64,000 nt of DNA from Desulfatiglandales bacterium (GTDB lineage Bacteria > Desulfobacterota > DSM-4660 > Desulfatiglandales > Desulfatiglandaceae), in contig OY762721.1 in NCBI GenBank assembly GCA_963666345.1, forward strand, positions 1,728,001 through 1,792,000, in the 5' to 3' direction. A program made the position numbers and the translations under genes. The notes under the pieces were generated by a model. It saw only the letters and a list, made by a program, of their open reading frames with translations. It did not search any database and had not been told where the DNA came from. How positions within the stretch are numbered: the first letter of the stretch is position 1; every line of letters starts with the position of its first letter. Shown here one piece after another: positions 4,433 to 39,411 of this stretch.

Positions 4433-5629
4433 TTACGGTAATCCGAATATGCTTACTGCGCTTACATGTATGCCCACGTTTCCTCCGACATTGTGAATAA
4501 GTCCCAGTTTCGGGTTTTTGAGCTGTCTTTCGGGGTTATCCACCCGTCCCTGAAGTTGTTTGTATACCTCGTAGGTCATCCTCAGACCGCTTGCCGAAAG
4601 AGGGTGCCCGAAACACTTAAGACCCCCGTCCGTATTTATAGGCTGCGCGCCCGATAAGAGATATCTGCCCGCTTCAATGTCCTCAGGCGCCTTGCCCCTC
4701 TCGCTGAAACCCAGATCCTCGATGGTTATCAGCTCGGTGGTGCTGAAGCAGTCGTGGAGTTCGGCCATGCTGATCTCTTCCCTGGGATTTTTGATGCCCG
4801 CCTCTTTGTAGGCGGCATTTGCCGCTGCAACGTTCTCCGGGAAACTCAAAAAATCAAATTCCTGCTGCATTGTCGACTGGCCGGCCCCTGTGGCAACCCC
4901 CTGCCCTTTTACCAGTATGTAGTCGTCCCTGAGTGTCTTTGCTATCTCAGGTGTAGTTACAATGGCCGCTGCCCCTCCGTCACTCATGCCGCACGCGTCA
5001 TATAGGGTGTAGGGCCATGATATGATTCTGGCCTTAAGCACGTCTTCCACGGTTATCTTTCGGTGCAGATGCGCCTTGGGGGTCAGAAGCCCGTTGTCGT
5101 GGTTCTTGACGTTTATGATTGCAAGCATCTTTTTGAATCCTTCGAAATCCCAGTTATAATCATCCTTGTAATGATAAAAATATCTGGTCCCGTACTGCCC
5201 GAACTGGCTCGCGGGCGGGATGTCCCATTCGGTCATACCCCTGTCAAGAGGCTCCTGGATGAACAGACCGAACCCGCCGTGATGATCCTTTGTCTTTTCA
5301 ACTCCGCATGCCAGTACGATATCAAAGACACCTGAAGCGACTCCGTAGCAGGCGTTTCTTAGGACATCCTGACCGCCCGCGCAAAAATTCTCCACCCTTG
5401 ACACGGGGATATATTGCGTCTTGAGGGCCCTGGCAAGATGCGCGCCGGTAAAACCGGACTCCCTGCTCGCATACCATGCCGCCTGAATGTCCTTAGGTTC
5501 GATTCCAGCATCCTCTATGGCCTCGTAGCATGAATCCACTACCAGGTCTTCTATCCCTTTATCCCACAGTTCACCGAACTTCGTGCAACCCATGCCGACG
5601 ATAGCTACCTTGTCTCTGATGCTTCCCAT
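4433..5629 (-). CDS. SCP2-type thiolase (IaaA/BbsB-like role inferred)
   Basis: VENFCAGG, ELHDCF, GHPLSASG motifs. Confidence 0.9.
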   Translation of the reverse strand: MGSIRDKVAIVGMGCTKFGELWDKGIEDLVVDSCYEAIEDAGIEPKDIQAAWYASRESGFTGAHLARALKTQYIPVSRVENFCAGGQDVLRNACYGVASGVFDIVLACGVEKTKDHHGGFGLFIQEPLDRGMTEWDIPPASQFGQYGTRYFYHYKDDYNWDFEGFKKMLAIINVKNHDNGLLTPKAHLHRKITVEDVLKARIISWPYTLYDACGMSDGGAAAIVTTPEIAKTLRDDYILVKGQGVATGAGQSTMQQEFDFLSFPENVAAANAAYKEAGIKNPREEISMAELHDCFSTTELITIEDLGFSERGKAPEDIEAGRYLLSGAQPINTDGGLKCFGHPLSASGLRMTYEVYKQLQGRVDNPERQLKNPKLGLIHNVGGNVGIHVSAVSIFGLP

Positions 5630-5671
5630 TTTGAGCTCCCGGCCCTGAAGGGCCCATGTTTTATGTTTTCA

Positions 5672-7087
5672 TCATCTCACAGGTTTCGATTCCCAGAAAT
5701 ATGTGCAGACCCCTTCACGGTCCGTTATCTCATCCCAGGGGGAGTATCTCCTGAAGGTCATCTCCACCGGCATGCCGACAGTTATGTTTTCACTGTCCGC
5801 CTCCGTCATATAACTCTGGATCCTTCCTCCCCCCTCGAAATCGACCTCGGTTGTAACTACAGGTATCTCAGCTCTGGGAGTAATATAATCCAGGTTATAG
5901 GTGAAGATCCTGCCCTTCCTGCCTATGAAGCTGTATTGCTCCATGCAATCTCTTTCACGGCATTTGGTGCAGACACGCTGCGGGGGATACTGAACATACC
6001 CGCATGACAGGCACCTTGAACCATGAAGGCTGACGGTTCGATCGTATTCCCTTTTCGCCGCAACCGCCGAGTATGCCGCGTGAGGCCCGGCCGCCTTTTC
6101 AATGGGGATTATGCCTCTCCACCTGAGATACCTCATGTAATCGTCGACCACCCTCCTGGAACCGCTGTGCCCTCCGATCCCCATGCTGTTTTCTCTTGCC
6201 TTTTCAATATTGCCGTTAACCTTGAAAGCGAATGCATCCGCGCCGTTTCCGTAACCCGCACAGAGTATAAGTTCCCCTTTTGATGATTGCTCAAGGGCCG
6301 CGACCAGCCCCATGAGCACGGAAGCGGCCCCTGTATCGCCTATAGAGTCTATAAGGGGGTCCTGGAGCTGTTTTTCGACGTCAAAGCCGAGGGATTTTGA
6401 GAGCTTGACACCTCGTCTGCCGTCCGGGCTGTAAAGACAGACACGGTCAAAATCATCCGGCTTGAATCCGTATCTCTCCATCAATCCCCTTATCGCCTTG
6501 CCCATGGACGGCAGATAGCCCTGTTCAACGGCGAAACGGCTCTCCCAGCTTCTCACGTATCGATCATGGTGGCTTCTCCATACATCTATTATCTCGTTGT
6601 ATACATGGAAACTTCCTTCAAGGGTCACGGCCGCATCCTTGTCTCCCAATAATATCGCGGCAGCGCCGTCTCCCAGGTTTTTTTCCTCCATTGATCCCGG
6701 GTGACCCAGCCTGCAGTCCGAGGCCACCACCATGGCGGATCTCGTTGAGCCTGCCATGACGCTGTCAAAACCCGCCTTGAGGGCCGCGGTACCGGCGCGC
6801 AGGCAGTTGCCGAATTCGGCGGTGTAGGTCTGCTCCCTGAAGTCGGAGGCCATGGCAATGGTGGTAGCCGATGAATGTTCCCTGTACGGGGCTGAAGTCG
6901 TGCCGAAATAGATCGCTTCAACACTATTTCGGTCCCTTCCCTTGAGACAGTCACTGACCGCCTCCACCGCCATCGTTACGCTGTCTTCGTCAAAGCTGCA
7001 GATCGCTTTTTCTCCCCTGCCGCCTATGACTTTCCTGTCCAGTCTGAAAAGCGGGACATATGCGCCGAATGATGTAATTCCGACCAT
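5672..7087 (-). CDS. HMG-CoA-synthase-like fold fused to DUF35 Zn-ribbon/OB-fold
   Basis: DEDSVTMAVEA, GDGAAA, GDTGAA, GYGNGAD; C-terminal CLSC..YPPQRVCTKC...GMPVEMTFR. Confidence 0.85.
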   Translation of the reverse strand: MVGITSFGAYVPLFRLDRKVIGGRGEKAICSFDEDSVTMAVEAVSDCLKGRDRNSVEAIYFGTTSAPYREHSSATTIAMASDFREQTYTAEFGNCLRAGTAALKAGFDSVMAGSTRSAMVVASDCRLGHPGSMEEKNLGDGAAAILLGDKDAAVTLEGSFHVYNEIIDVWRSHHDRYVRSWESRFAVEQGYLPSMGKAIRGLMERYGFKPDDFDRVCLYSPDGRRGVKLSKSLGFDVEKQLQDPLIDSIGDTGAASVLMGLVAALEQSSKGELILCAGYGNGADAFAFKVNGNIEKARENSMGIGGHSGSRRVVDDYMRYLRWRGIIPIEKAAGPHAAYSAVAAKREYDRTVSLHGSRCLSCGYVQYPPQRVCTKCRERDCMEQYSFIGRKGRIFTYNLDYITPRAEIPVVTTEVDFEGGGRIQSYMTEADSENITVGMPVEMTFRRYSPWDEITDREGVCTYFWESKPVR

Positions 7088-7096
7088 GTGGTACTC

Positions 7097-9254: not shown

Positions 9255-10982
9255 CTATATATTTGCCTTTAAAGAATCCCTGTTTCTTACGGTTGATTCA
9301 AATTCCAGATCGACTCCGCCGTCATCAAAAACCGCTCCATATTCAGACACGGCTTTCTCAACGCTCACGTATCCGTCGTAGATATCCTCCTGAAGCGATT
9401 CCAGTTCCCGCTCGAGGGGGTCTCCGAATCCTCCGCCACCGGCCGCATCCATTACGATTTCGTCACCCGGGCTCAGTTGAGTGAGCCCGTAAGGGTTTCC
9501 CCGGCCGCCGTTTACGAGGAATTGCGCCTTTGTCCCGTCTTTTCCTCCAAAGAGCCCCTCCGGCGGATATCGGTACCTTCCCGACTGAATGCCCAGGTTG
9601 ACCGGCGGTCTGGGCGCGTACTCGTCATCAGGTACTTCGATAACGACTCTTCTTCCAAGTCCGCCTTTCATCTTCCCCGGCCCTCCTGAATCTGTAATCA
9701 CGGACCGCTCCTTTATGATAAGCGGAGTGTCGCTTTCAAAAATCTCTACCGGGGTATTTGCACCGTTTGCGGGGAAAATAAAGTCATAGTAACCGTCATT
9801 TGATGAGCTGGCCCCCATGCCCCCGCCCCTTATTATGACGGAGTGCCAGGGGCTTCCCTCGCCTCTTTTCCCGTAAAACACATTCATGGTCGCGGGCGTG
9901 CCGCCGCTTCCGGCAATCACCCTGTCCGGTAAGGCCTTGGCCATTGCCCTGTAGATTATCTCGGTCATAAAATGGCCGATCTGCATGCGTGCGGCTACGG
10001 CAGCCGGAAACCTGCAGTTTACCACACTTCCCTCGGGGGCCTTCAGGCTGATGGGAGATGCGCAACCGTCGTTGTTGGGTATTTCAGGATCGAACATGCT
10101 CTTCATTGCCATAAACACATAGGCATAGGTAAAGTTGTACACCACGTTTCCGCCCCATTCTACCTGGCCCGAGGAACCTGCCAGATCCACCGTGATGTCG
10201 CTGCCTTTGACCTCGACCGCCACATGTATCTCTACATCCTCCTTCCCTTCCATCTGCTCCACAATGCCTTTTGCCCTGTATATGCCGTCCGGGACCTTGG
10301 AAATGGCCTCCCGCATGCTCTTCTCTGTCCTGTCTATAATCTCGTCGGCTATCTCATCAAGGCCGTCCATTTTATAATCATCGAGCATCTGCTTTATCTT
10401 TTCGGCACACACGTGATTTGCCGCAATCTGGCTCCTTATGTCGCCCGTTACCTCATCGGGTGTTCTCACGTTCCATCTTATCATTTCCATTACCGCTTCA
10501 TTCAGTATCCCTGCCTCATAGAGCTTTACAAAGGGGATAAAAAGGCCGTCTTCAAACACGTCATGATTGTCCGAGGAAACCCTGCCTCCTATGTCGGAAT
10601 GATGAAACACACAGGCGGTAAAAGCGGTCAGCTTTCCCTTGTAGAAGATGGGACTCATTACGCATACATCGTTGAGATGCCCGGCCAGCGCCCATGGGTC
10701 GTTCGTGATGAACACGTCGCCGTCTTTGCACTGTCCGGGGGACAGATTATTCACGAGGTTTTTTATGCCCAGGGCCATCGCCCCGGACTGGCCGGGTGTG
10801 GCGAAGCTGCCCTGCGCCAGTTCTCTTCCCCTCCTATCGGTAAACATGCAGGTATAGTCATGGGCATCCCTTAAAAGGCTCGAAAATGCGGTTCTGGCTA
10901 CAGATCCGTCCGCTTCGTCTACCACGGAAATCAATCTTCTCCAAAGGATTTCCAATGTTATGGGATCAAAGGTCAGACCCAT
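9255..10982 (-). CDS. Hydantoinase B / oxoprolinase family subunit
   Basis: RTAFSSLLRDAHD, ITNDPW..GHLND, HHSDIGG, NTPVEIFE, DSGGPGK..GG, GGGGFGDP. Confidence 0.92.
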   Translation of the reverse strand: MGLTFDPITLEILWRRLISVVDEADGSVARTAFSSLLRDAHDYTCMFTDRRGRELAQGSFATPGQSGAMALGIKNLVNNLSPGQCKDGDVFITNDPWALAGHLNDVCVMSPIFYKGKLTAFTACVFHHSDIGGRVSSDNHDVFEDGLFIPFVKLYEAGILNEAVMEMIRWNVRTPDEVTGDIRSQIAANHVCAEKIKQMLDDYKMDGLDEIADEIIDRTEKSMREAISKVPDGIYRAKGIVEQMEGKEDVEIHVAVEVKGSDITVDLAGSSGQVEWGGNVVYNFTYAYVFMAMKSMFDPEIPNNDGCASPISLKAPEGSVVNCRFPAAVAARMQIGHFMTEIIYRAMAKALPDRVIAGSGGTPATMNVFYGKRGEGSPWHSVIIRGGGMGASSSNDGYYDFIFPANGANTPVEIFESDTPLIIKERSVITDSGGPGKMKGGLGRRVVIEVPDDEYAPRPPVNLGIQSGRYRYPPEGLFGGKDGTKAQFLVNGGRGNPYGLTQLSPGDEIVMDAAGGGGFGDPLERELESLQEDIYDGYVSVEKAVSEYGAVFDDGGVDLEFESTVRNRDSLKANI

Positions 10983-10993
10983 TTTTCCCTCCT

Positions 10994-15569: not shown

Positions 15570-15586
15570 TGCTTCCTCCTGTGGTA

Positions 15587-16069: not shown

Positions 16070-16083
16070 TTCAATCTCCTTTG

Positions 16084-18263: not shown

Positions 18264-18318
18264 GACTTCTATCTCTCCATAAGCAAAATGGTAGGTGAAC
18301 ATCAGGCGATATATTTCA

Positions 18319-19771: not shown

Positions 19772-19773
19772 CT

Positions 19774-20259: not shown

Positions 20260-20297
20260 GTCAGCCATCAAAGGGATCGTGTTCCGTTCCTGTTTGT

Positions 20298-20323
20298 CCA
20301 CCCTTCCCCGGGGGGGAAGGGTG
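20298..20323. other. Intercistronic stem-loop between dctP and dctQ
   Basis: CCACCCTTCCCC-GG-GGGGAAGGGTGG perfect 12-bp inverted repeat. Confidence 0.7.
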
Positions 20324-20335
20324 GGGCCCGGTAAA

Positions 20336-21540: not shown

Positions 21541-23169
21541 CTAAAAGATGTTCGGTTCGGTATATTCACCGAAGACCTCCCTGAACACATTCGCCATTTC
21601 TCCTACCGTCGCATATGACTTGCAGCATTCGACAAGGTAGGGCATGACATTTTTTTTGTCTCCGGCAGCCTTTTCAAGTCTCTGAAGCGAATCAAAGGCC
21701 GCCTTTTCATTCCTCTGCTTCTTTAATTCGTTGAGCCTTTCTATCTGCAGTCTGGCCCAGCTCTCGTTGTATTCATGAAGCTCGACTTCCATGTCCACGC
21801 CTTCGGTATACTTATTGACCCCCACCTTGGTTACTTCGCCCTTCTGGAGTTTTTTCTCATATTCATAGGCCTGTCTTGACACCTGCCTCTGAACGTAGCC
21901 GGATGATACCGCCTCAACCATCCCCCCCTGTTTTTCGACAAGCTCCATCTCTTCAAGAATTTTTTCCTCCATCTGCTTTGTAAGTGTCTCCATGAAATAG
22001 GAGCCTGCCAGGGGATCCACCGTGTCGCGCAATCCGATCTCATCCATCAATATCTGAAACGTCCTCAGGGAAAGCAGGGCCGCCCTCCGGGTGGGGATGG
22101 TGTAAGCCTCGTCGAATGAGCACAGCGCCGTGGTCTGTGCACCTGAAAGAGCGGAAGCCATGGCGTAATAGGCGCCCCTCATGATATTGTTCTCAGGCTG
22201 CTGCTTTGTCATGCCTGAGCCTCCCCCCCCGAAAATGCCTCTCAGGAAAAGCGCCTTTTTATTCTTAACGCCGTATCTCTGCCTCAAAAGTGTCGCCCAC
22301 AGCTTTCTGGCCGCCCTGAACTTTGCTACCGTCTCCCACAGGTTGCCGTATATATTGAGGTTGAATGAAAATCTCCCTACCACCTCCTCGGCGCTGTAGC
22401 CTCTTGCCACCACATTGTCTATGTAGGCGAACGCGATCAGAAGGGCGTACGATATCTCCTGGGCCGGTGTGCAACCCGATTCCCTTATATGGTAACCGCA
22501 GACCGAAACGGGATTGCACCTCGGCAGCTCCTTCATGGAATATTCGATCGTATCCCCTATGAGCCGGACGGCCGGTTCCACCGGATAAATCCAGGCCCCC
22601 CTTCCGACTATCTCCTTGAGGATATCGTTTTGGGGTGTGGCGGATATCTTTGTCCTGTCATAGCCGAAGACCTCGGCCACGGACTGATACATGGCGAGCA
22701 TTATGGATGCCACGGCATTTATGGTGAGCCCGCTTCCTATGCGGTTGAGATCGATATCCTTGAAGGCGACTTCAAAATCCCTGAGGGAATCGACCGCCAT
22801 TCCGACCCTTCCCACTTCCCCCTCGGCCATCGGGTTATCCGAATCGTATCCCATCTGGGTGGGCAGATCAAAGGCCACGTTAAGGCCTGTCTGCCCGTTA
22901 GAGATCATGAGCTTGAAGCGCTCGTTTGTCTCTTCAGGGGTCCCGAAACCCGTGTACTGTCTGGTTGTCCAGTTCCTGCTCCGGTATCCGAGCGGGTGAA
23001 GGCTCCTTGAAAAGGGGAACTCCCCCGGGTCCCCAAGGTCTTTTTGGTAATCAAAACCTATTTCTTCAAGGTCTTCAGGCGTGTATACCGGTTTTATCTC
23101 AATGCCGGACTGCAGAATAACCTCTTTTATGGCATCCCTGTCATCCTTTATATAGGTTGCAACTCCCAT
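21541..23169 (-). CDS. Acyl-CoA mutase (methylmalonyl-CoA mutase family), large substrate-binding subunit with atypical pocket
   Basis: PGEFPF.R, WTTRQYTGFG, AFDLPTQMGYDSD, QNDILKE, GYHIRESG, DPLAGSY. Confidence 0.92.
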   Translation of the reverse strand: MGVATYIKDDRDAIKEVILQSGIEIKPVYTPEDLEEIGFDYQKDLGDPGEFPFSRSLHPLGYRSRNWTTRQYTGFGTPEETNERFKLMISNGQTGLNVAFDLPTQMGYDSDNPMAEGEVGRVGMAVDSLRDFEVAFKDIDLNRIGSGLTINAVASIMLAMYQSVAEVFGYDRTKISATPQNDILKEIVGRGAWIYPVEPAVRLIGDTIEYSMKELPRCNPVSVCGYHIRESGCTPAQEISYALLIAFAYIDNVVARGYSAEEVVGRFSFNLNIYGNLWETVAKFRAARKLWATLLRQRYGVKNKKALFLRGIFGGGGSGMTKQQPENNIMRGAYYAMASALSGAQTTALCSFDEAYTIPTRRAALLSLRTFQILMDEIGLRDTVDPLAGSYFMETLTKQMEEKILEEMELVEKQGGMVEAVSSGYVQRQVSRQAYEYEKKLQKGEVTKVGVNKYTEGVDMEVELHEYNESWARLQIERLNELKKQRNEKAAFDSLQRLEKAAGDKKNVMPYLVECCKSYATVGEMANVFREVFGEYTEPNIF

Positions 23170-23286: not shown

Positions 23287-23691
23287 TCACACGGGCCCGG
23301 AGGCGTTGCCTTTTATGAAATCCACGATATCCACGAATGCGGTCCCTCCGGGGAAAATCCCTCCCACACCCATCTTTTCAAGCTTATGGATATCATTGTT
23401 CGGGATTACCCCTCCAAGGACTACCAGCTTGTCGTCGACCTCTTTTTCTTTCAAAAGCCCCATAAGCTTCCTGCATATGGGCATATGGGCGCCCGACATG
23501 ATCGAAAGACCTATCACATCCGCATCTTCCTGAATCGACTGATTCACAATGCTTTCCACGGTCTGATGAAGCCCGGTGTAAATGACCTCCATGCCCGCCT
23601 CTTTCAGGGCATGCGCCACGACCTTTGCCCCCCTGTCGTGACCGTCAAGTCCCGGTTTGGCCAGAAGGACCCTTATCTTCCTCTCCAACAT
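23287..23691 (-). CDS. Cobalamin-binding small subunit of the acyl-CoA mutase
   Basis: KPGLDGHDRG (DxHxxG), GLSIMSGAH, GGVIP. Confidence 0.95.
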   Translation of the reverse strand: MLERKIRVLLAKPGLDGHDRGAKVVAHALKEAGMEVIYTGLHQTVESIVNQSIQEDADVIGLSIMSGAHMPICRKLMGLLKEKEVDDKLVVLGGVIPNNDIHKLEKMGVGGIFPGGTAFVDIVDFIKGNASGPV

Positions 23692-23742: not shown

Positions 23743-24447
23743 TTATATGACATCCTGCATGTCATATTCCCTCAGGACCGCCTCCTTACCCTTAAGGATA
23801 TGTTCCCTTACAAGCCTTTCGACACCTTCGGCGTCCCGTCTCTTTATATACGCAACTATCTGCCTGTGGTCGTCATTGCTGGTCCTGGCCCAGTCCTCCA
23901 TCTTGAGGATCATCCTCCTGAACCGGTAGATCTGCTCTCTGAGATTATTTATCAGCCTTATCAGCTTAGGGCTCCTGCTAAGGGCGTAGAGCATATCGTG
24001 AAATTCCGTATTGATCCTGGGAAGATCTTCAAGCCGGCCCTTTTCCAGGCATCTCTGGTATTCGTCTATCTTCTCCTCGACCGCACTCAATTCATGCCCG
24101 TTGTGTGCCAGGGCCGCAAGCCTTGCGGCATAGCTCTCAAGAACCGCCCTTATTCCGAAGGTCTCATCGATCTCGGCACGGGTCAGACCGGCCACAAACA
24201 GTCCGCCTGTCGGGTACTTGCAGAGAAGTCCCTCCCTTTCCAGCTTGTGTATGGCCTCCCTTACCGGTGTCCGGCTGATATCGAGCGCCTTTGCCACCTG
24301 ACTCTCAATTATCCTGGAGCCTGGGGCAAGGGAGCCGTCAACGATCGATTCCTTGAGGTTCTCATATACATACTGGCCAAGAGATCTTCTCAGCGGCAGC
24401 GATTTGAACTCCTTGAAATCAGGATATTTTATCATACCCTTTTCCAT
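23743..24447 (-). CDS. GntR (FadR/FCD subfamily) transcriptional regulator
   Basis: wHTH PGSRI.E..A..LDISRTPVREA; FCD domain N.EFH...H; start uncertain. Confidence 0.92.
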   Translation of the reverse strand: MEKGMIKYPDFKEFKSLPLRRSLGQYVYENLKESIVDGSLAPGSRIIESQVAKALDISRTPVREAIHKLEREGLLCKYPTGGLFVAGLTRAEIDETFGIRAVLESYAARLAALAHNGHELSAVEEKIDEYQRCLEKGRLEDLPRINTEFHDMLYALSRSPKLIRLINNLREQIYRFRRMILKMEDWARTSNDDHRQIVAYIKRRDAEGVERLVREHILKGKEAVLREYDMQDVI

Positions 24448-24524
24448 ATCAAAAATTATCGAACCCAAAAAGGCCCCTCTATCCCCTGAAACAACATGAA
24501 CCGGGCTGAACGCGGGCGTTCCCT

Positions 24525-25658
24525 TTATCTGAGATACTGCCTGGCGATAGTGGTCTGAAGTACCTCATGGGTACCCCCGCCGTAGAGCAGAAATCTATTG
24601 TCCCTGTAAAACCGCTGGACATCGTATTCCATGGAATAACCATACGCCCCGTAGATCCTGGTTGCCTCATCACACGCGCTGCAGGCCGATTCCACGGTGA
24701 AATACTTTGCCATTGACGCCTCGTTCAGACACTCTGTCTTATCGTCGATCAGGTGAGTGACCTTATCCACCATGAGGCGTCCCGCCTCCAGATTTACCGC
24801 CATATTGGCGATCTTGGCCTGGATGAGCTGGTATTTGCCTATCTGTTTTCCGAACTGCGCCCTCTCCTTGCAGTACCTTATGGAGGCGTCCATGGCGGCC
24901 CGGTGGATTCCTATTGCCAGTGCCGCAGTCATGATCCTTATCTCGGCAAGGATCGTCAGGAGCACATTGAGCCCCCTCCCCAGCTCCCCCAGCATGTATT
25001 CGTCCGGCACGCGGCAGTTGTTGAAATAGATTTCGGAAAGAGCGCTTGTCCTGGTTCCCAGGGTGTCGAATTTCTTGCTGTGCGAAAAACCTGGGGTATC
25101 GCTCGGGATAAAGAAGAACATGAGCCCCCTCAATCCCTTTTCAGGATCGGTCTGGCACAGTACGGTATGAAAATCTCCGTACGGTCCGCTCGTGGACCAT
25201 GTCTTCATTCCGTTTATGACCCAGCCGTCTTTCACCTTTACGGCCCTTGTCCTCACATTGCCCAGATCGGAGCCCGCCTCAGGTTCGGTAAGCTGAAAAG
25301 CGCCTATCTTCTCCCCCCTCAGGGCGGGTTTCAGATACTTTTCATGCATCTCCTTTGTCCCGTAAAGGTAAAGGCCGTTGGTTCCCATAAGGCACTGCAT
25401 GGCGGTCATGGCCCCGAGGCTCATAAGCCCTCTTGCCAGCTCCTCCATGGCGATACAGTAAAGGGTGGTATTACCTCCCGAACCCCCCGCCTTTTCGGGA
25501 TACCTTATGCCTAGGACCCCCATGCGCGCCAGTTTGTCAAACTGCTCCCTTGGAAATTCCCCCTTCTCATCAAGTTCCCTGGCAAAGGGGATGACCTCCT
25601 CATCAACGAACCTGGACATGACCTTCCGCATCAGTTTTTCCGGATCTGAACGCAGCAT
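24525..25658 (-). CDS. Acyl-CoA dehydrogenase lacking the canonical catalytic Glu (IaaF-like, inferred)
   Basis: LTEPEAGSD, NGMKTW, RAQFGKQI, YGAYGYS; LYGGGT in place of IYEGT. Confidence 0.9.
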   Translation of the reverse strand: MLRSDPEKLMRKVMSRFVDEEVIPFARELDEKGEFPREQFDKLARMGVLGIRYPEKAGGSGGNTTLYCIAMEELARGLMSLGAMTAMQCLMGTNGLYLYGTKEMHEKYLKPALRGEKIGAFQLTEPEAGSDLGNVRTRAVKVKDGWVINGMKTWSTSGPYGDFHTVLCQTDPEKGLRGLMFFFIPSDTPGFSHSKKFDTLGTRTSALSEIYFNNCRVPDEYMLGELGRGLNVLLTILAEIRIMTAALAIGIHRAAMDASIRYCKERAQFGKQIGKYQLIQAKIANMAVNLEAGRLMVDKVTHLIDDKTECLNEASMAKYFTVESACSACDEATRIYGAYGYSMEYDVQRFYRDNRFLLYGGGTHEVLQTTIARQYLR

Positions 25659-26857
25659 TATGCCCCCCGAACAGACTTGATTTCATTCATCGCTTTAACC
25701 AGCCTGGGTACCACCTCATGCAGGTCCCCCACTATCCCCCAGTCCGCCACATCGAATATGGGAGCCCCTTCATCCCTGTTTATTGCCACTACATACCTTG
25801 AGCCGAGCATACCGGCCCGGTGCTGAATCGCGCCCGAGATGCCGCAAGCTATGTACAGCTCAGGCCTTACGGTCTGTCCTGTCTGACCCACCTGTCTGTC
25901 AACCGGAAGCCAGCCTTCCTCCACTATTATCCTTGTACCTGCCACCTCGCCACCCATGGCCTCGGCAAGAGAAAACAGGGCGCCCATCCCCTCTTTGGAG
26001 CCTACTCCCCTTCCGCCCGCCACGATTACCCCTGCCTCGCCGATGCTCACTCCCTGTTTCTTCTCCTTTACGATCTCGAGGAGCTTTGTCCCTATTTCCT
26101 TTTCCTTCAACGCCACGGCGCACTTGATTACCTCTCCCCTGTTTCCCGGTTTGGGAAGGATCTCCATCACGCCGGGCCTGACCGTGGCCATCTGGGGCCT
26201 TGAGTACCTGTTGGCGATGGTGGCCATGACATTGCCGCCGAACGCGGGCCTTGTCTGGAGAAGGATACCTTCCTCTTCATCTATGCTCAGCTCGGTGCAG
26301 TCGGCAGTCAGACCCACCCCTATCCTTCTGGATACCCGCGGGGCGAGATCACGCCCTATATGGGTTGCGCCCATAAGGAGGATATTGGGTTTGTAACTGC
26401 TTACGATCTCCTGGATCACATTGGTGTAGGCGACGGTCCTGTAGTGTTCAAGCGCCTTGGACTGCGCAAGCATGACCCTGTCCGCCCCGTGCTCAATAAG
26501 GGTCTTGGAAAGGGCTGAGACCTTGTAACCCAGAAGGAGCGCCGAGACCTCCTGATCCAGTGACAAGGCAAGGTCCTGCGCCTTACCGAGAAGCTCGAGT
26601 GATACCCTGCTCAGCTTTCCCTCCCTCTGCTCGGCAAAGACCCATATGCCTTTCCTGTCGCTGAAATCAGGTATTTCCCTCGGCACCATGTCCGTATTAA
26701 TGGCCTTCTGCTTGCATACCTCAAGGCAGGCGCCGCATGATGTGCATTTATCGAGTATATGCGCCTTGCCCTCCCTCATTTCCACCGCGCCGTAGGGACA
26801 GGCCTTGAGGCAGCGCTTGCATCCGTTACACAGATCAGTTTCAACCCATACCGTCAT
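25658..26857 (-). CDS. etfA: Electron transfer flavoprotein alpha subunit with N-terminal 2x[4Fe-4S] domain
   Basis: CNGCKRCLKACP, CTSCGACLEVC; RPAFGGN, QVGQTG, GISGAIQH. Confidence 0.93.
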   Translation of the reverse strand: MTVWVETDLCNGCKRCLKACPYGAVEMREGKAHILDKCTSCGACLEVCKQKAINTDMVPREIPDFSDRKGIWVFAEQREGKLSRVSLELLGKAQDLALSLDQEVSALLLGYKVSALSKTLIEHGADRVMLAQSKALEHYRTVAYTNVIQEIVSSYKPNILLMGATHIGRDLAPRVSRRIGVGLTADCTELSIDEEEGILLQTRPAFGGNVMATIANRYSRPQMATVRPGVMEILPKPGNRGEVIKCAVALKEKEIGTKLLEIVKEKKQGVSIGEAGVIVAGGRGVGSKEGMGALFSLAEAMGGEVAGTRIIVEEGWLPVDRQVGQTGQTVRPELYIACGISGAIQHRAGMLGSRYVVAINRDEGAPIFDVADWGIVGDLHEVVPRLVKAMNEIKSVRGA

Positions 26858-26939
26858 TCTCACATCTCCACTATTATGAGGGCTCCATTTGCATGCCTGT
26901 TATCGCCGCACCAGCCGGTCTTCTCATTTTTCCCGGTTT

Positions 26940-27731
26940 TCATATCAGCTTGTTCTCCCTGAATCTTGACACCAGGGTGCCTACCGCCTCTTCGGCATCC
27001 GCCTTGATTAACTCCCCCTGCCGCTTGAACTTGGGGGCAAAGGTCTTTATGACATGAGTCAGGGATCCTTCCAGGCCTATATCCTTTGCCTGTGCTCCGA
27101 TATCCGCCGCATTCCATATGGTTATGGGGGCCTTTTCGCCGCAGGCCTTTAACAGTCCCGAAACCGCGGGATGGCGCGGAGAGTTTATTTCTCCTATCAC
27201 GGTCAGCAGGGCCGGAAGAGAGCACTGCACCTTCTCGAATCCGTTTTCCAGCCTCCTGTGTACCACCATTGTCTTCTTCTTTATCTCTTCTATTCGGGAG
27301 ACATATGTTACCTGTGATATACCCAGATACTCCGCCACCTGGGGCCCGATCTGGGCGGTATCGCCGTCTATGGCCTGGCGCCCGCACAGTATGATGTCAT
27401 AGCCGCCCATTTTTTCGATCGCCTTTCCCAGGGTGGAAGAGGTGGCCCATGTGTCGGCCCCGGCAAAGGCCCTGTCGGTCAGCAGTATCCCGGAATCGGC
27501 CCCCATGCCGATGGCCTCCGAGACCGCATCTATCGCCTGCGGGGGGCCCATGGAAAGCACCTTTACCTTGCCGCCCCAGGTCTCCTTTATACTCACCGCA
27601 GCCTCAAGCGCGTGGCGGTCATCCGGGTTTATTATGCTTTCGATCCCCTCCCTTATGAGGTTCCCGGTCTTTGGATCCAGTTTTACTTCCGTTGTATCGG
27701 GGACCTGTTTAACAAGGACGATAATCTTCAT
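26940..27731 (-). CDS. etfB: Electron transfer flavoprotein beta subunit
   Basis: KQVPD, SMGPP, FAGADT, GRQAIDGDTAQ. Confidence 0.95.
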   Translation of the reverse strand: MKIIVLVKQVPDTTEVKLDPKTGNLIREGIESIINPDDRHALEAAVSIKETWGGKVKVLSMGPPQAIDAVSEAIGMGADSGILLTDRAFAGADTWATSSTLGKAIEKMGGYDIILCGRQAIDGDTAQIGPQVAEYLGISQVTYVSRIEEIKKKTMVVHRRLENGFEKVQCSLPALLTVIGEINSPRHPAVSGLLKACGEKAPITIWNAADIGAQAKDIGLEGSLTHVIKTFAPKFKRQGELIKADAEEAVGTLVSRFRENKLI

Positions 27732-27775
27732 TGCCCTTCTCCATGCCGTGTTAAAAGCCGTGACTCGATTAATAA

Positions 27776-28012
27776 GGTTCTTCTCCCAATTAATTGGGAG
27801 AAAGGGTCCAAGGGTTCCAGGGTTCTTTGCTCCACTTACGCTTCGCTCAGTTCCACAGCTTCGTAGCAGATTCCCGGTTTCAAGAATAACCCAACTTACC
27901 TGACATCATGGCTAATGTTTAAATCTCTATAATTTACAAGCAGTTCACTCGAACCCGCGAACCCTTGACCCCTCGAATCCTTCATTTAGATCAGCTCTTT
28001 TGGAGATGATCC
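27776..28012. mobile_element. MITE-like element, family A, complete, with 8-bp TSD
   Basis: Ends GGTTCTTCTCC...GGAGATGATCC (imperfect TIR); flanked by ATTAATAA at 27768-27775 and 28013-28020. Confidence 0.85.
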
Positions 28013-28034
28013 ATTAATAATAGCCTGCGCGTTC

Positions 28035-29225
28035 CTAGATGATCTTTTCCTCTTTGAGTTGATCCAGTTGTTCGGATGAATATCCGAGCATGCCGTAAAT
28101 CTCGCCGTTATGCTCCCCGAAGCGGGGAGGAAAGGAGAGCATCCTGTTCGATTCCTCGACAAAAGAGGTCATATTGGGCGGAGGCGGCATGGTAAGGCGC
28201 GTGCCGGAGTTTTTATCCTCTGTATAGAGCAGTCGTGTCTCCACAAGGGGATCTGCGACTACCTCGGGGATGGTCTTTATCTTGCTTATCGGAATGGTTA
28301 TGGAATTGAACAGATCGATCAACTCCTCACTGCTTATCTTTGAGGTAATCTCATTGATTTTGCGGTTCAGATTCTCTACGTCCCCTATCCTGCCGGAGTT
28401 TTTCCCGTACTGCTCCTCGTCAAGGGATTTGAATATGTCAAGAGATATCATCGAACCCCACTGCCTGTCGTTACCCACGGCTATGTACACGTAACCGTTA
28501 CTCGTCTTGAATACCGATACGGGACAGAAGAATTCATGGGTATTGCCCCTTCTGGTTATGGGCCTGCCGTAAAGGGTTGAAAGGGTGATAGGCACGGTAA
28601 GCCATGACACGGAAGATTCGAACATGGACATGTTTATGCAGGAGCCCTCTCCCGTGACCTGACGCCTGAAAAGCGCCTTCATGAGCAGACCGTATGAGTG
28701 TTCGCTCGTGCCCATGTCGGGAAGCGGTATGCCCAGCACCTGTGGGTCGGAATCGGCCTCGCCCGTGAGATCCATCAGGCCTGAGCGGGCCTGAAGGATC
28801 GGATCATAGGCCCCCTCGTTGCTGTCCGGCCCGAAACCTGTAACCCCCAGCCATATTATATCCTTTTTTACTTGTCTGAGGGTGTCATAGTCGATTCCCA
28901 GTTTTTTATAGTTCCTTGGAAGCTGGTTTGTGGCGAATATATCCACCTTCAGCTCGGTGATAAGCGTCCTCAACAGATCCTGTCCCTTTGGATCACCCAG
29001 ATTCAGAGTAAGGGCCTTTTTCCCTGCGTTTATGCAGAGGAAATAGGAATTCATCCTCTCTTCTCCCAGGACATTTTCCCCTATAAACCGGTTCGGATCA
29101 CCATAAACCGGATGCTCCAGCCTGATGACCTTCATCCCGTCCTGGGCGAGTCTGTATGTGAGATATGGCAGAACCGTTGCCTGTTCAAGCGAAAGTACGG
29201 TGAGATTCTTAAAAAGACCCATCAT
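28035..29225 (-). CDS. Family III (CaiB/BaiF) CoA-transferase (IaaL-like role inferred)
   Basis: GDPNR, NAGKK, LGIDYDTL, YDPILQARSGLM, catalytic Asp in PDMGTS; GGAGG RBS. Confidence 0.9.
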   Translation of the reverse strand: MMGLFKNLTVLSLEQATVLPYLTYRLAQDGMKVIRLEHPVYGDPNRFIGENVLGEERMNSYFLCINAGKKALTLNLGDPKGQDLLRTLITELKVDIFATNQLPRNYKKLGIDYDTLRQVKKDIIWLGVTGFGPDSNEGAYDPILQARSGLMDLTGEADSDPQVLGIPLPDMGTSEHSYGLLMKALFRRQVTGEGSCINMSMFESSVSWLTVPITLSTLYGRPITRRGNTHEFFCPVSVFKTSNGYVYIAVGNDRQWGSMISLDIFKSLDEEQYGKNSGRIGDVENLNRKINEITSKISSEELIDLFNSITIPISKIKTIPEVVADPLVETRLLYTEDKNSGTRLTMPPPPNMTSFVEESNRMLSFPPRFGEHNGEIYGMLGYSSEQLDQLKEEKII

Positions 29226-29406
29226 ATTCCTCCCGGTTGAAGGTAAAAGGGTTCGAAAAGCGTAAACCGATCCTTTAACAGACAAAACAAAAAGGGAGTT
29301 AATATAAGATTAGATAGCCCGTTTAAAAACTATAAATATTATTTAAATATAATTTGCTATGATTAGGAATGTAAAAAAGACGTTTATCAGCTGTTTTGCA
29401 AAAACA

Positions 29407-29435
29407 TGTATACAGTATACATTATTTGCTGTCAA
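29407..29435 (-). promoter_or_regulatory. Main sigma70 promoter of the catabolic cluster with overlapping putative GntR operator
   Basis: Minus strand TTGACA-N17-TATACA in AT-rich DNA; TGTATACAGTATACA (29407-29421) covers the -10 box and part of the spacer. Confidence 0.7.
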
Positions 29436-39407: not shown

Positions 39408-39411
39408 ATAT

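What the first reader, a model, noticed from the sequence alone, without database searches (positions are those of the whole stretch)
4433..29435. Candidate anaerobic indole-3-acetate (auxin) degradation cluster in a strict-anaerobe genomic background
Seen in sequence: one co-oriented cluster encodes a Mo-hydroxylase (3 subunits), hydantoinase A/B, aryl-acetate CoA ligase, class III CoA-transferase, split B12 mutase, acyl-CoA dehydrogenase, HAD/ECH fusion, thiolase, GntR regulator and transporter. Established: this enzyme combination is that of the iaa pathway of Aromatoleum aromaticum/Azoarcus evansii (IaaIJK, IaaCE, IaaB, IaaL, IaaGH, IaaF, IaaP, IaaA, IaaR). The route is IAA to 2-oxo-IAA, ring opening to (2-aminophenyl)succinyl-CoA, mutase to 2-aminobenzylmalonyl-CoA, oxidative decarboxylation, then beta-oxidation to 2-aminobenzoyl-CoA. 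Inference: this is a deltaproteobacterial variant with TRAP uptake, a PaaK-type ligase, its own ETF, an epimerase and extra redox genes. The substrate could also be a related N-heterocyclic arylacetate.
Basis: partly seen in the sequence, partly recalled or inferred. Interest (0 to 1): 0.9.

Follow-up and report, generated by a model that had tools for sequence, protein, structure and literature searches.

The report
Anaerobic auxin (indoleacetate) breakdown gene cluster
This is a sulfate reducer's copy of the known oxygen-free pathway that breaks the plant hormone indoleacetate down to 2-aminobenzoyl-CoA, a kind of cluster already predicted in print for such bacteria, with some unusual add-on genes at one end.

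Summary

The reading as an iaa-type (anaerobic indoleacetate) cluster is supported:
- The acyl-CoA dehydrogenase has GGG in place of the catalytic YEG motif, the published IaaF (benzylmalonyl-CoA dehydrogenase) signature.
- It groups with orthologues from syntenic clusters and away from 7 paralogues in its own genome.
- The gene order CoA-transferase, ETF, ACAD, GntR, mutase, (TRAP), ligase, Mo-enzyme, hydantoinase recurs in many Desulfobacterota.
- The mutase is not a true methylmalonyl-CoA mutase, and the Mo-enzyme flavin subunit lacks the reductase-type Fe-S insertion.
- The genome has DsrA and the ring-cleaving hydrolase Oah.

It is not new as a kind: Schuhle et al. 2021 (PMC8360864) already cite predicted iaa operons with their own ETF in sulfate reducers.

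Newer points:
- The ETF is of the CarDE (bifurcating) type with a ferredoxin domain.
- The thiolase is paired with a PhlA/HMGCS-like-DUF35 fusion.
- The distal end holds a 2-naphthoyl-CoA-reductase-like enzyme followed by Hdr-like genes.

Direct comparison with Aromatoleum proteins could not be made. The substrate is inferred.

The parts
28035..29285 (-). Family III CoA-transferase (IaaL-like; proposed phenylsuccinyl-CoA intramolecular transferase). First gene of the cluster.
   Evidence: PF02515, 241 bits. All NCBIfam equivalogs score below cut-off. Nearest solved structure is succinate-hydroxymethylglutarate CoA-transferase, 166 bits. Syntenic in relatives.
27768..28012 (.). Roughly 245-bp dispersed repeat inserted between the CoA-transferase and ETF beta genes.
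   Evidence: 85 matches in the own genome. Contigs of relatives in 3 RNA-library runs join 27767 to 28013 without it.
26940..27731 (-). ETF small (beta) subunit of the CarD / bifurcating-ETF type.
   Evidence: PF01012. CarD 6fah_B scores 272.7 bits, against 81-82 bits for non-bifurcating ETF beta. It carries GRQAIDGDTAQIGP, matching CarD and the C. difficile ETF small subunit.
25658..26863 (-). ETF large (alpha) subunit with an N-terminal 2x[4Fe-4S] ferredoxin domain (CarE type).
   Evidence: Fer4 + ETF + ETF_alpha domains. CarE 6fah_A scores 412 bits over residues 6-395, against 140 bits for human ETF alpha. The ferredoxin domain with 8 or more Cys is present in 70 of 79 orthologue hits.
24525..25658 (-). 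IaaF-type acyl-CoA dehydrogenase (proposed decarboxylating (2-aminobenzyl)malonyl-CoA dehydrogenase).
   Evidence: Reads LLYGGGTHEV, with GGG in place of YEG; this signature is described in PMC8360864. 120 of 120 close homologues also have GGG. It sits in a 12-row set with SH-aLRT 99 that contains none of 7 own-genome paralogues.
23743..24468 (-). GntR/FCD transcriptional regulator.
   Evidence: PF00392 + PF07729. It sits between the ACAD and the mutase genes in most relatives.
23287..23691 (-). B12-binding small subunit of the acyl-CoA mutase.
   Evidence: PF02310; TIGR00640, 148 bits, above cut-off.
21541..23169 (-). Acyl-CoA mutase large subunit (IaaG/H-like; proposed phenylsuccinyl-CoA/benzylmalonyl-CoA mutase).
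   Evidence: PF01642, 584 bits. The MCM equivalog NF006944 scores 446, below its cut-off of 876. HcmA 4r3u scores 449 bits and MCM 352 bits. It keeps RQYTGF and VGRGAW as in MCM but has GIFGGGGSG where P. shermanii MCM has HSQTSGWS. That motif is present in 56 of 60 orthologue hits.
18464..21349 (-). TRAP transporter: DctP 20336-21349, DctQ 19774-20301, DctM 18464-19771.
   Evidence: PF03480, PF04290 and PF06808. Present at the same place in many relatives but not all.
16968..18302 (-). PaaK-family arylacetate-CoA ligase (IaaB-like).
   Evidence: TIGR02155 scores 397 bits, below its cut-off of 646. Phenylacetate-CoA ligase 4r1l scores 359 bits.
13173..16956 (-). Three-subunit molybdenum hydroxylase: FAD subunit 16084-16956, 2Fe-2S subunit 15587-16069, Mo subunit 13173-15656. 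The listed Mo ORF overlaps the Fe-S gene by 70 bases, so the true start is probably later.
   Evidence: Pfam domains. All NCBIfam equivalogs score below cut-off. The Mo subunit is nearest to 4-hydroxybenzoyl-CoA reductase alpha, 1rm6, 395 bits. The FAD subunit has no four-Cys insertion.
9255..13081 (-). ATP-dependent hydantoinase-type lactamase: HydA 10994-13081 (695 aa) and HydB 9255-10982 (575 aa). Proposed 2-oxoindoleacetyl-CoA gamma-lactamase.
   Evidence: PF01968/PF05378/PF19278 and PF02538. Best NCBIfam matches are caprolactamase alpha/beta, below cut-off. The two-gene hydAB order with no gamma subunit fits the Hyd branch criteria in PMC5214803.
7097..9118 (-). 3-Hydroxyacyl-CoA dehydrogenase / enoyl-CoA hydratase fusion (beta-oxidation of 2-aminocinnamoyl-CoA).
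   Evidence: PF02737 + PF00378. Orthologues at 64-69% identity lie next to the cluster in 9 of the 80 loci, in other positions, and in G260.
5672..7087 (-). HMGCS/PhlA-like condensing-enzyme domain fused to DUF35 (zinc ribbon + OB fold). Probable partner of the thiolase.
   Evidence: Archaeal HMGCS 6esq_I, 123.5 bits; PhlA 9skh_A, 122.6 bits; DUF35 6esq_E, 60 bits. The Cys aligned with HMGCS is kept; the aligned Glu and His positions are Thr and Tyr, and their catalytic role is recalled, not from a call. HMGCS equivalog scores 228, below its cut-off of 244.
4433..5629 (-). SCP-x/archaeal-type thiolase (proposed 2-aminobenzoylacetyl-CoA thiolase).
   Evidence: NF004810, 485 bits, above its cut-off of 403. 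Nearest solved structures are 7yvy and 6esq_A (archaeal thiolase of the thiolase/HMGCS/DUF35 complex); BbsB scores 119 bits.
2378..4360 (-). OYE + FAD + [4Fe-4S] flavoenzyme resembling 2-naphthoyl-CoA reductase (type III aryl-CoA reductase-like).
   Evidence: PF00724 + PF07992. NCR 6qkg scores 459 bits over residues 18-660, against 256 bits for FadH. The motif CVACNLC...C is present. Orthologues at 81-85% identity occur in 3 of 21 IaaF-positive genomes.
1837..2364 (-). 175-aa conserved protein with a predicted H-NOX/V4R/Bet3-like fold.
   Evidence: Weak PF14196 match, E 0.0015, below cut-off. 285 homologues. Model pLDDT 83.8. Foldseek TM 0.44-0.54 to H-NOX and Bet3/TRAPPC3 chains. It follows the OYE gene in 3 of 3 relatives examined.
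1098..1559 (-). Glyoxalase/VOC-family protein resembling methylmalonyl-CoA epimerase.
   Evidence: PF13669. TIGR03081 scores 81.5, below its cut-off of 115. 81-86% orthologues follow the OYE and 175-aa genes in G260, G378 and G306.
1..302 (-). 5' part of an HdrA-like FAD/Fe-S gene that runs off the window's left edge. HdrA-MvhD-like and GltD-like genes follow outside the window.
   Evidence: tblastn with the G378 448-aa orthologue gives 80% identity from window 257 down to -1035. The HdrA-MvhD-like gene lies at -1065 to -3173 and the GltD-like gene at -3251 to -4950, the latter as two matches that overlap by 19 bases.

Best explanation
This is an iaa-type catabolic cluster of a sulfate/sulfite-reducing Desulfobacterota genome. 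It converts indole-3-acetate (or indoleacetyl-CoA made from tryptophan) to 2-aminobenzoyl-CoA plus acetyl-CoA without oxygen.

Proposed order of steps. All are inferred for this organism. Per PMC8360864, IaaF is biochemically shown in Aromatoleum, and IaaB and IaaL are reported as shown by Schuhle 2016, which I could not read.
1. TRAP uptake.
2. The PaaK-like ligase makes indoleacetyl-CoA.
3. The three-subunit Mo-hydroxylase makes 2-oxoindoleacetyl-CoA.
4. The ATP-dependent HydAB lactamase opens the ring to (2-aminophenyl)succinyl-CoA.
5. The family III CoA-transferase moves CoA to the other carboxyl group.
6. The split B12 mutase gives (2-aminobenzyl)malonyl-CoA.
7. The GGG-type ACAD oxidises and decarboxylates it to 2-aminocinnamoyl-CoA, passing electrons to the cluster's own CarDE-like ETF.
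8. The HAD-ECH fusion, then the thiolase with its PhlA-like-DUF35 partner, release 2-aminobenzoyl-CoA and acetyl-CoA.
9. 2-Aminobenzoyl-CoA enters the genome's benzoyl-CoA pathway.
For: - Domain content of all genes fits.
- The ACAD has GGG in place of YEG. PMC8360864 states that all IaaF-subclass members have this motif and that all are encoded in iaa operons. 120 of 120 close homologues share it.
- In a quick ML tree of 47 rows, the ACAD lies in a 12-row set (SH-aLRT 99) of orthologues from syntenic loci. 0 of the 7 own-genome paralogues included fall in that set.
- Gene order around the ACAD is conserved in many of the 80 fetched loci and in 4 of 7 whole-genome stretches with nearly the full core set.
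- 21 of 400 other sampled genomes of the phylum have an orthologue at E <= 1e-120, spread over several families.
- The mutase is not a true MCM (446 bits against a cut-off of 876). It keeps the Tyr and Arg that MCM has at the aligned positions (their roles in substrate and carboxylate binding are recalled) and has a Gly-rich stretch.
- The Mo subunit is nearest to the CoA-ester enzyme 4-hydroxybenzoyl-CoA reductase, while the FAD subunit lacks a four-Cys insertion.
- HydAB has Hyd-type sizes and gene order.
- Relative G260 has TrpB-like, IorA and IorB genes embedded in its cluster. The own genome's IorA passes the TIGR03336 cut-off.
- The own genome has Oah and DsrA above cut-off and six AOR-family genes.
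- PMC8360864 says predicted iaa operons with an ETF occur in Desulfatiglans anilini, other sulfate reducers and Ferroglobus.
Against: - No Aromatoleum or Azoarcus Iaa sequence could be obtained, so orthology to the characterised enzymes is indirect. It rests on one motif, gene content and a paper's statement.
- GGG also occurs in ACADs outside the clade (for example P0150, P0166, P0171, P0176, P0196), so the motif is necessary but not sufficient.
- My searches found no sulfate reducer shown to grow on or be induced by indoleacetate.
- Every NCBIfam equivalog hit for the ligase, Mo-enzyme, hydantoinase, mutase and transferase is below cut-off, so specificity is open.
- The beta-oxidation genes here (HAD-ECH, PhlA-like-DUF35, thiolase) are not at this position in most relatives. 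The fusion has no orthologue above 46% identity in 21 IaaF-positive genomes.
Confidence: 0.7

Rival explanations
1. The enzyme logic is the same but the physiological input differs. One option is that the cluster handles indoleacetyl-CoA made internally from tryptophan or indole (TrpB-like enzyme, transaminase, IorAB) rather than external auxin. Another is a related arylacetate or N-heterocyclic acetate taken up by the TRAP system.
For: - TrpB-like and IorAB genes are embedded in the G260 cluster and lie about 16-20 kb to the left in the own genome.
- The ligase is only PaaK-like and below cut-off.
- Close homologues come mostly from marine-sediment-type MAGs, where plant auxin is not an obvious substrate.
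Against: - A ligase and a solute-binding transporter sit inside the cluster, which argues for uptake of a free acid.
- IorAB is not contiguous with the cluster in this genome.
- The pathway after indoleacetyl-CoA would be identical, so this refines the main reading rather than opposing it.
Confidence: 0.2
2. The Mo-enzyme is a 4-hydroxybenzoyl-CoA-reductase-type aminobenzoyl-CoA reductase that removes the amino group reductively. It would not be an indoleacetyl-CoA hydroxylase.
For: - The Mo subunit's best solved relative is 4-hydroxybenzoyl-CoA reductase alpha, and TIGR03194 is its best NCBIfam hit.
- In D. anilini, an HBCR-like enzyme is proposed as a 4-aminobenzoyl-CoA reductase (PMC7500099, passages).
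Against: - TIGR03194 scores 575, below its cut-off of 994, and the match stops at residue 582.
- The FAD subunit is best matched by XdhB. It aligns to the HBCR beta model only in two pieces and has no four-Cys insertion. That HBCR beta carries an extra [4Fe-4S] in such an insertion is recalled, not from a call.
- Without a hydroxylase, the lactamase would have no substrate.
Confidence: 0.05
3. The cluster is an accidental neighbourhood of unrelated housekeeping operons: propionate/methylmalonyl-CoA metabolism, purine hydroxylase, oxoprolinase and fatty-acid beta-oxidation.
For: Each family on its own has housekeeping members. The promoter and terminator scans gave no more sites than shuffled sequence, so operon structure is not shown.
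Against: - The same combination and order recur in different families of the phylum and in Aminicenantes and Thermoplasmata MAGs.
- No protein reaches the cut-off of the housekeeping equivalog.
- The ACAD lacks the catalytic Glu.
Confidence: 0.03

Closest known systems
iaa operon of Aromatoleum aromaticum EbN1 / Azoarcus evansii (anaerobic indoleacetate degradation). Sources: PMC8360864 (abstract, introduction, discussion and passages read) and PMC5214803 (passages read).
   Same: CoA ligase, Mo-enzyme, hydantoinase-type gamma-lactamase, family III CoA-transferase, split B12 mutase, GGG-type decarboxylating ACAD, beta-oxidation genes, a regulator and a binding protein for uptake.
   Different: - It has its own CarDE-type ETF with a ferredoxin domain. 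The paper says EbN1 has only one non-bifurcating ETF, which does not react with IaaF.
- The thiolase is SCP-x type and paired with a PhlA/HMGCS-like-DUF35 fusion.
- An NCR-like reductase with Hdr-like genes lies at the distal end.
- Sequence-level orthology was not testable here.
Predicted iaa operons of strict anaerobes (Desulfatiglans anilini, other sulfate reducers, strain NaphS2, Desulfocarbo indianensis, Ferroglobus placidus), as cited in PMC8360864 from Schuhle et al. 2016, which is not held in the library.
   Same: A strict-anaerobe host, an iaaF orthologue with GGG, and an ETF paralogue encoded in the operon.
   Different: The paper calls that ETF non-bifurcating. Here both ETF subunits are far closer to bifurcating ETFs (412 and 273 bits) than to non-bifurcating ones (140 and 82 bits).
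Caffeyl-CoA reductase-ETF complex CarCDE of Acetobacterium woodii (PDB 6fah).
   Same: An ACAD-family enzyme acting on a cinnamoyl-type CoA ester, together with EtfB/EtfA in which EtfA carries an N-terminal two-cluster ferredoxin domain.
   Different: CarC reduces caffeyl-CoA. Here the ACAD lacks the catalytic Glu and is expected to run oxidatively with decarboxylation.
2-Naphthoyl-CoA reductase and other type III aryl-CoA reductases. Sources: PMC6502838 and PMC13365417 (passages read).
   Same: The three-domain OYE/FAD/[4Fe-4S] architecture, and NCR is the best solved match.
   Different: It sits beside an indoleacetate-type cluster, not a PAH cluster. Its substrate is unknown. The NCR-specific Trp that blocks the NADPH site was not checked.
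Archaeal thiolase/HMGCS/DUF35 complex (6esq), the PhlACB acyltransferase (5m3k, 9skh) and benzoylsuccinyl-CoA thiolase BbsAB (7pxp).
   Same: An SCP-x-type thiolase together with a DUF35 zinc-ribbon/OB protein and a KAS III/HMGCS-like partner.
   Different: DUF35 is fused to the HMGCS-like domain. The residues aligned with the (recalled) HMGCS catalytic Glu and His are Thr and Tyr. The setting is degradative.

Membership tests
iaa (anaerobic indoleacetate) cluster | IaaF-subclass ACAD with GGG in place of the YEG active-site motif | tested here: met
   LLYGGGTHEV. The criterion comes from PMC8360864. 120 of 120 close homologues share it.
iaa (anaerobic indoleacetate) cluster | The ACAD belongs to a clade whose members are all encoded with other iaa genes | tested here: met
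   It lies in a 12-row set, SH-aLRT 99, all from syntenic loci, with 0 of 7 own-genome paralogues inside (quick tree, careful search unfinished). Synteny.
iaa (anaerobic indoleacetate) cluster | CoA ligase, Mo-hydroxylase, two-subunit hydantoinase-type lactamase, family III CoA-transferase and split B12 mutase present together | tested here: met
   Met at domain level. HydAB order and sizes fit the Hyd branch.
iaa (anaerobic indoleacetate) cluster | Reciprocal best hits or co-clustering with A. aromaticum EbN1 IaaA-R proteins | not testable with these tools
   No tool returned an EbN1 sequence (tried). Ebenau-Jehle 2012 is not held.
iaa (anaerobic indoleacetate) cluster | Induction by, or turnover of, indoleacetate | not testable with these tools
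   Only contigs from RNA libraries of marine sediment lie on the cluster. That shows neither transcription nor substrate.
Methylmalonyl-CoA mutase (true MCM) | Reaches the NF006944 equivalog cut-off; catalytic and B12 domains fused | tested here: not met
   446 bits against a cut-off of 876. B12 domain is on a separate 134-aa protein. HcmA scores above MCM.
4-Hydroxybenzoyl-CoA reductase | TIGR03194/03195 cut-offs, and the extra [4Fe-4S] insertion in the FAD subunit (this feature is recalled) | tested here: not met
   575 against a cut-off of 994, and 111 against 404. No four-Cys insertion in the 290-aa FAD subunit.
Bifurcating-type (CarDE/Bcd-Etf-like) ETF | Both subunits closer to bifurcating than to non-bifurcating ETFs; DGDTAQ(V/I)GP stretch in the small subunit; CarE-like ferredoxin domain | tested here: met
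   412 against 140 bits, and 273 against 82 bits. The alignments show the stretch and the Fd domain. Actual bifurcation is not testable here.
Type III aryl-CoA reductase (NCR-like) | OYE TIM barrel + [4Fe-4S] linker + FAD domain; NCR as the closest characterised relative | tested here: met
Type III aryl-CoA reductase (NCR-like) | Bulky Trp (W459 in NCR) blocking the NADPH site; activity only with low-potential donors | not tested
   The feature is taken from PMC6502838.
HMG-CoA synthase | Catalytic Glu-Cys-His triad (recalled) and the equivalog cut-off | tested here: not met
   Cys is kept, but the aligned Glu and His positions are Thr and Tyr. NF003274 scores 228 against a cut-off of 244.

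The most novel reading that the evidence does not exclude
The distal module is an ATP-independent, ferredoxin- or bifurcation-driven reductase system for the pathway's end product, 2-aminobenzoyl-CoA. The module comprises the NCR-like OYE flavoenzyme (2378-4360), the H-NOX/V4R-like 175-aa protein, the VOC-family protein, and then the HdrA-like, HdrA-MvhD-like and GltD-like genes running off the window.

Two-electron reduction of the ring would give an enamine. That enamine either loses ammonia to give benzoyl-CoA, or tautomerises and hydrolyses to 6-oxocyclohex-1-ene-1-carbonyl-CoA, the substrate of the genome's Oah. This would be the first type III aryl-CoA reductase acting on a monocyclic substrate.

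Separately, the CarDE-type ETF could be the missing physiological oxidant of IaaF.
Probability: 0.15. Interest if true: 0.8.

Novelty: new member of a known kind. Interest (0 to 1): 0.4.

Why it matters
- The cluster type is common. 541 stretches in a one-genome-per-species collection encode a relative of the ACAD, and 21 of 400 other sampled genomes of the phylum have an orthologue. Anaerobic turnover of indoleacetate or tryptophan-derived indoleacetyl-CoA may therefore be a routine trait of sediment sulfate reducers.
- PMC8360864 leaves open what re-oxidises IaaF without oxygen. This locus, and 70 of 79 orthologue hits, pair the enzyme with a CarDE-like ETF carrying a ferredoxin domain. That gives a concrete candidate to test, and it differs from the paper's description of these ETFs as non-bifurcating.
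- The NCR-like reductase beside the cluster, with Hdr-like genes downstream, offers a candidate for the unassigned reductive step on aminobenzoyl-CoA in strict anaerobes.

Tried and rejected
- **Getting Aromatoleum Iaa sequences for reciprocal comparison.**
  - The word-index search listed only hits of 85% identity or more.
  - The representative search has no names.
  - The genome-contig scan kept the best 80 of 541 relatives, all MAGs down to 59% identity.
  - Cluster look-ups gave only MAG names.
  - The plasmid tblastn peaked at 43% identity, and the best hit (a Massilia plasmid) is not an iaa cluster.
  - The ESM Atlas gave only generic names.
- **Literature.** Ebenau-Jehle 2012 (PMC3370604) is not held. 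Schuhle 2016 did not appear.
- **Earlier scan findings.** Nothing was on record.
- **Promoter and terminator scans.** Counts were within the shuffled expectation (21 against 18.1, 23 against 20.1, 12 against 13.4, 23 against 17.7), so nothing can be said about operon structure.
- **The 175-aa protein as a C=N hydrolase** (from the weak ATC_hydrolase hit). The fold search gave H-NOX and Bet3/TRAPPC3-like chains at TM 0.44-0.54, not a hydrolase. I dropped the idea.
- **The VOC protein as a dedicated benzylmalonyl-CoA epimerase.** This is possible, but the gene travels with the OYE gene in 3 of 3 relatives examined, two of them away from the iaaF contig. I do not assert it.
- **RNA evidence.** Three metatranscriptome runs from one study hold contigs (mostly 90-99% alike) over 29, 30 and 29 of 30 bins of 9300-29285. 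Contigs in an RNA library do not show transcription and no silent control stretch was laid, so this is not used as support.
- **Complex prediction** for ACAD-ETF was not run, because a textbook pair would pass by likeness to solved complexes.

Full report
**What is there.** The window is G000:C1:1728001-1792000 of a single-contig 4.16-Mb genome. Between 1098 and 29285 all long ORFs with family matches lie on the minus strand. In transcription order they are:
- family III CoA-transferase, 28035-29285
- ETF beta, 26940-27731
- ferredoxin-ETF alpha, 25658-26863
- acyl-CoA dehydrogenase (ACAD), 24525-25658
- GntR/FCD regulator, 23743-24468
- B12-binding mutase subunit, 23287-23691
- mutase large subunit, 21541-23169
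- TRAP DctP, DctQ, DctM, 21349-18464
- PaaK-like ligase, 16968-18302
- Mo-hydroxylase FAD, 2Fe-2S and Mo subunits, 16956-13173
- hydantoinase A and B, 13081-9255
- HAD-ECH fusion, 7097-9118
- HMGCS/PhlA-like-DUF35 fusion, 5672-7087
- SCP-x-type thiolase, 4433-5629
- OYE/FAD/Fe-S flavoenzyme, 2378-4360
- 175-aa protein, 1837-2364
- VOC/epimerase-like protein, 1098-1559

MltG at 29477-30523 marks the right-hand end. It missed the 5672-7087 gene, and its left boundary of 4433 cuts off genes that it mentions in its own text.

**The cluster leaves the window.** A minus-strand ORF starts at 302 and runs off position 1. tblastn with the orthologue from genome G378 gives 80% identity from window 257 down to -1035. 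An HdrA-MvhD-like gene follows (-1065 to -3173), then a GltD-like Fe-S flavoprotein gene (-3251 to -4950). The GltD-like match is in two pieces that overlap by 19 bases, so the gene may be split or frameshifted.

**The key test.**
[quoted passage not shown] - The window's ACAD reads LLYGGGTHEV at that place. All 120 of the 120 listed close homologues (85-98% identity) also have GGG.
- GGG is not unique to the clade, since several unrelated representatives have it too. I therefore built a tree of 47 rows:
  - the window protein;
  - 10 hand-picked orthologues from fetched loci;
  - the 7 of 12 own-genome paralogues for which loci were held;
  - 29 hand-picked single-domain representatives out of the 150 listed.
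- The careful search did not finish, so only the quick IQ-TREE result is available. In it the window protein lies in a set of 12 rows with SH-aLRT 99, all taken from syntenic clusters of Desulfobacterota, Aminicenantes and Thermoplasmata. None of the 7 own-genome paralogues (YEG, GEG or other) is inside that set.

**Synteny.**
- A scan of one genome per species found 570 pattern matches, of which 541 encode a relative. The best 80 were kept, and all are MAGs.
- tblastn of 25 window proteins against these 80 loci (10-kb flanks) shows the order CoA-transferase, ETF beta, ETF alpha, ACAD, GntR, mutase small, mutase large. This is followed either by TRAP, ligase and Mo subunits, or by HydA, HydB, ligase and Mo subunits, wherever the contig is long enough.
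- Seven genomes were then examined with longer stretches. At least three of these stretches are the same contigs as fetched loci, judged by identical lengths.
  - G140, G295, G318 and G354 held nearly the whole core set together. G140 gave no ETF beta hit, G318 gave no Fe-S or Mo-subunit hit, and HydAB in G354 is only 29-36% identical.
  - G260 was cut by a contig end.
  - G326 and G185 showed only ACAD, ETF, TRAP, a GntR-like gene and, in G326, part of a CoA-transferase.
- In a sample of the phylum, 22 of 401 genomes including this one have an orthologue at E <= 1e-120 (19 of 340 high-quality genomes), scattered over several families.

**Individual enzymes.**
- *Mutase.* It scores 446 bits on the true-MCM equivalog (cut-off 876) and has its B12 domain on a separate protein. 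Its best solved relative is the split 2-hydroxyisobutyryl-CoA mutase (449 bits), ahead of MCM (352 bits).
  - In the printed alignments it keeps RQYTGF and VGRGAW, as MCM does, where HcmA has Ile and Gln. From memory, these are the Tyr and the carboxylate-binding Arg of MCM.
  - It has GIFGGGGSG where P. shermanii MCM has HSQTSGWS.
  - Among 60 orthologue hits of at least 55% identity, 56 show the Gly-rich stretch, 59 the Tyr motif and 58 the Arg motif. The rest lacked coverage, and some records are duplicates.
  - I infer a dicarboxylyl-CoA substrate with a bulky substituent.
- *Mo subunit.* It is nearest to 4-hydroxybenzoyl-CoA reductase alpha (395 bits), which fits a CoA-ester substrate. 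The FAD subunit is XdhB-like and has no four-Cys insertion, which fits a hydroxylase rather than an HBCR-type reductase. The HBCR insertion is recalled, not taken from a call.
- *HydA and HydB* (695 and 575 aa). They match caprolactamase best, come in hydAB order and have no gamma subunit. These are the Hyd-branch criteria given in PMC5214803, which also names '2-oxoindoleacetyl-CoA gamma-lactamases' as a sub-cluster of that branch (passages).
- *Ligase.* PaaK-like.
- *CoA-transferase.* Only distantly related to any solved structure.

**Genomic background.** The genome encodes DsrA and the ring-cleaving hydrolase Oah, both above curated cut-offs, and six AOR-family proteins. A sulfite-reducing anaerobe with a benzoyl-CoA lower pathway is therefore a fair description.

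**Independent context for an indole substrate.**
- In G260, the closest relative examined, the genes lie on one strand in this order:
  1. ligase, Mo subunits and HAD-ECH;
  2. a PAS-V4R-LuxR regulator, a PLP-dependent (PALP-domain) enzyme, IorA-like and IorB-like genes, an SBF transporter and TetR;
  3. the OYE gene, the 175-aa gene and the VOC gene;
  4. Hdr-like genes and an M24-family gene;
  5. HydAB.
- For the G260 genes, only Pfam domains were read for the PALP and IorA-like proteins. The IorB-like protein was best matched by IOR beta models but below their cut-offs (126.9 against 205.8).
- The own genome has the orthologous pair about 16-20 kb left of the window, separated from the cluster by unrelated genes. 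The TrpB-like gene scores 740 bits (cut-off 366), and IorA, 75% identical to the G260 protein, scores 659 bits (cut-off 650.9).
- Indolepyruvate:ferredoxin oxidoreductase makes arylacetyl-CoA, so this supports indoleacetyl-CoA as the pathway's entry compound. It also raises the possibility that tryptophan, not external auxin, is a main source.

**Points that differ from what is in print.**
1. *The ETF.* PMC8360864 says the ETF paralogues in strict-anaerobe iaa operons are non-bifurcating.
   - Here the large subunit matches CarE of the bifurcating caffeyl-CoA reductase complex over its whole length, including the N-terminal ferredoxin domain (412 bits). Human ETF alpha scores 140 bits.
   - The small subunit matches CarD (273 bits) against 82 bits for non-bifurcating ETF beta.
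   - The small subunit shares the GRQAIDGDTAQ(V/I)GP stretch with CarD and the C. difficile ETF small subunit.
   - The ferredoxin domain is present in 70 of 79 orthologue hits. The other 9 begin later in the query, and I did not check whether they are cut by contig ends.
   - Sequence type does not prove bifurcation.
2. *The thiolase partner.* The thiolase's neighbour is a fusion of a PhlA/HMGCS-like domain and DUF35. This resembles the archaeal thiolase/HMGCS/DUF35 complex and PhlACB. The residues aligned with the (recalled) HMGCS catalytic Glu and His are Thr and Tyr. It has no orthologue above 46% identity in the 21 IaaF-positive genomes searched: 10 of 21 gave any hit at E <= 1e-40.
3. 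*The OYE enzyme.* Its best solved relative is 2-naphthoyl-CoA reductase (459 bits against 256 for FadH), and it has the Fe-S Cys motif.
   - Of the 21 genomes, 8 have a hit at E <= 1e-100: three at 81-85% identity and five at 36-39%.
   - In all three close cases the OYE gene is followed by the 175-aa and VOC genes. In the two of them whose downstream genes I scanned (G260, G378), Hdr-like genes follow as well.
   - In G260 the module is embedded in the iaa-type cluster. In G378 and G306 it sits beside a different Mo-hydroxylase.
[quoted passage not shown] - The 175-aa protein models with pLDDT 83.8 and resembles H-NOX and Bet3 chains at TM 0.44-0.54. I read it as a ligand-binding fold, not an enzyme.

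**Verdict.** This is a genuine, well-conserved iaa-type cluster. The assignment rests on the IaaF signature, clade membership, synteny and context, not on direct comparison with the characterised Aromatoleum proteins, which no tool could supply. As a kind it is already in print for sulfate reducers, so it counts as a new member of a known kind. The substrate, and every step in this organism, is inferred. The ETF type and the NCR-like/Hdr-like module are the parts worth an experiment.

Noticed in passing
window 27768-28012: A stretch of about 245 bp between the CoA-transferase and ETF beta genes belongs to a dispersed repeat family. There are 85 matches in the own genome, including near-full copies at window 39410-39646 and 44582-44794. 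Contigs of relatives in three RNA-library runs join 27767 directly to 28013, so the insertion is specific to this genome or strain.
   Followed up: partly
window 25658-27731: The cluster's ETF is CarDE-like (bifurcating type) with an N-terminal two-cluster ferredoxin domain. PMC8360864 describes the ETFs of strict-anaerobe iaa operons as non-bifurcating.
   Followed up: partly
window 5672-7087 and 4433-5629: An HMGCS/PhlA-like domain is fused to DUF35 next to an SCP-x-type thiolase. This is a bacterial, degradative look-alike of the archaeal thiolase/HMGCS/DUF35 and PhlACB complexes. The aligned HMGCS Glu and His positions are Thr and Tyr, and no close orthologue was found in 21 related genomes.
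   Followed up: partly
window 1-4360 and G000:C1:1723050-1728000 (L117): A conserved module comprises the NCR-like OYE gene, the H-NOX/V4R-like 175-aa gene, the VOC gene, an HdrA-like gene, an HdrA-MvhD-like gene and a GltD-like gene (HdrBC-like in G260). The first three genes are found at 49-86% identity in G260, G378 and G306, always near a Mo-hydroxylase. The Hdr-like genes were confirmed in G260 and G378.
   Followed up: partly
L110/L111 (G260:C24) and L116:11961-15578 (own genome): A PLP-dependent (PALP-domain) enzyme gene and IorA/IorB-like indolepyruvate:ferredoxin oxidoreductase genes are embedded in the iaa-type cluster of relative G260. In the own genome the TrpB-like and IorA pair, both above NCBIfam cut-offs, lies about 16-20 kb left of the window. 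This hints at a tryptophan or indole feed into the pathway.
   Followed up: partly
L117:11050-12815 (left of the window): The GltD-like gene matches its G378 orthologue in two pieces that overlap by 19 bases (residues 10-417 and 412-584). This suggests a frameshift or a split gene in this genome.
   Followed up: no
window 13173-15656: The listed Mo-subunit ORF overlaps the 2Fe-2S gene by 70 bases, and all family matches begin at residue 30-50. The true start is probably an internal codon.
   Followed up: no
window 30668-32731: Beyond MltG lie a 397-aa protein with a weak VWA_CoxE match (E 0.0066, below cut-off) and a MadB/MoxR-like AAA ATPase. The pair is shared with locus L059 at 69% and 79% identity. 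I did not examine whether it has anything to do with Mo-enzyme maturation.
   Followed up: no
window 9300-29285: Three marine-sediment metatranscriptome runs of one study hold contigs 90-99% alike over 29, 30 and 29 of 30 bins of the cluster. DNA carry-over was not excluded and no control stretch was laid.
   Followed up: partly
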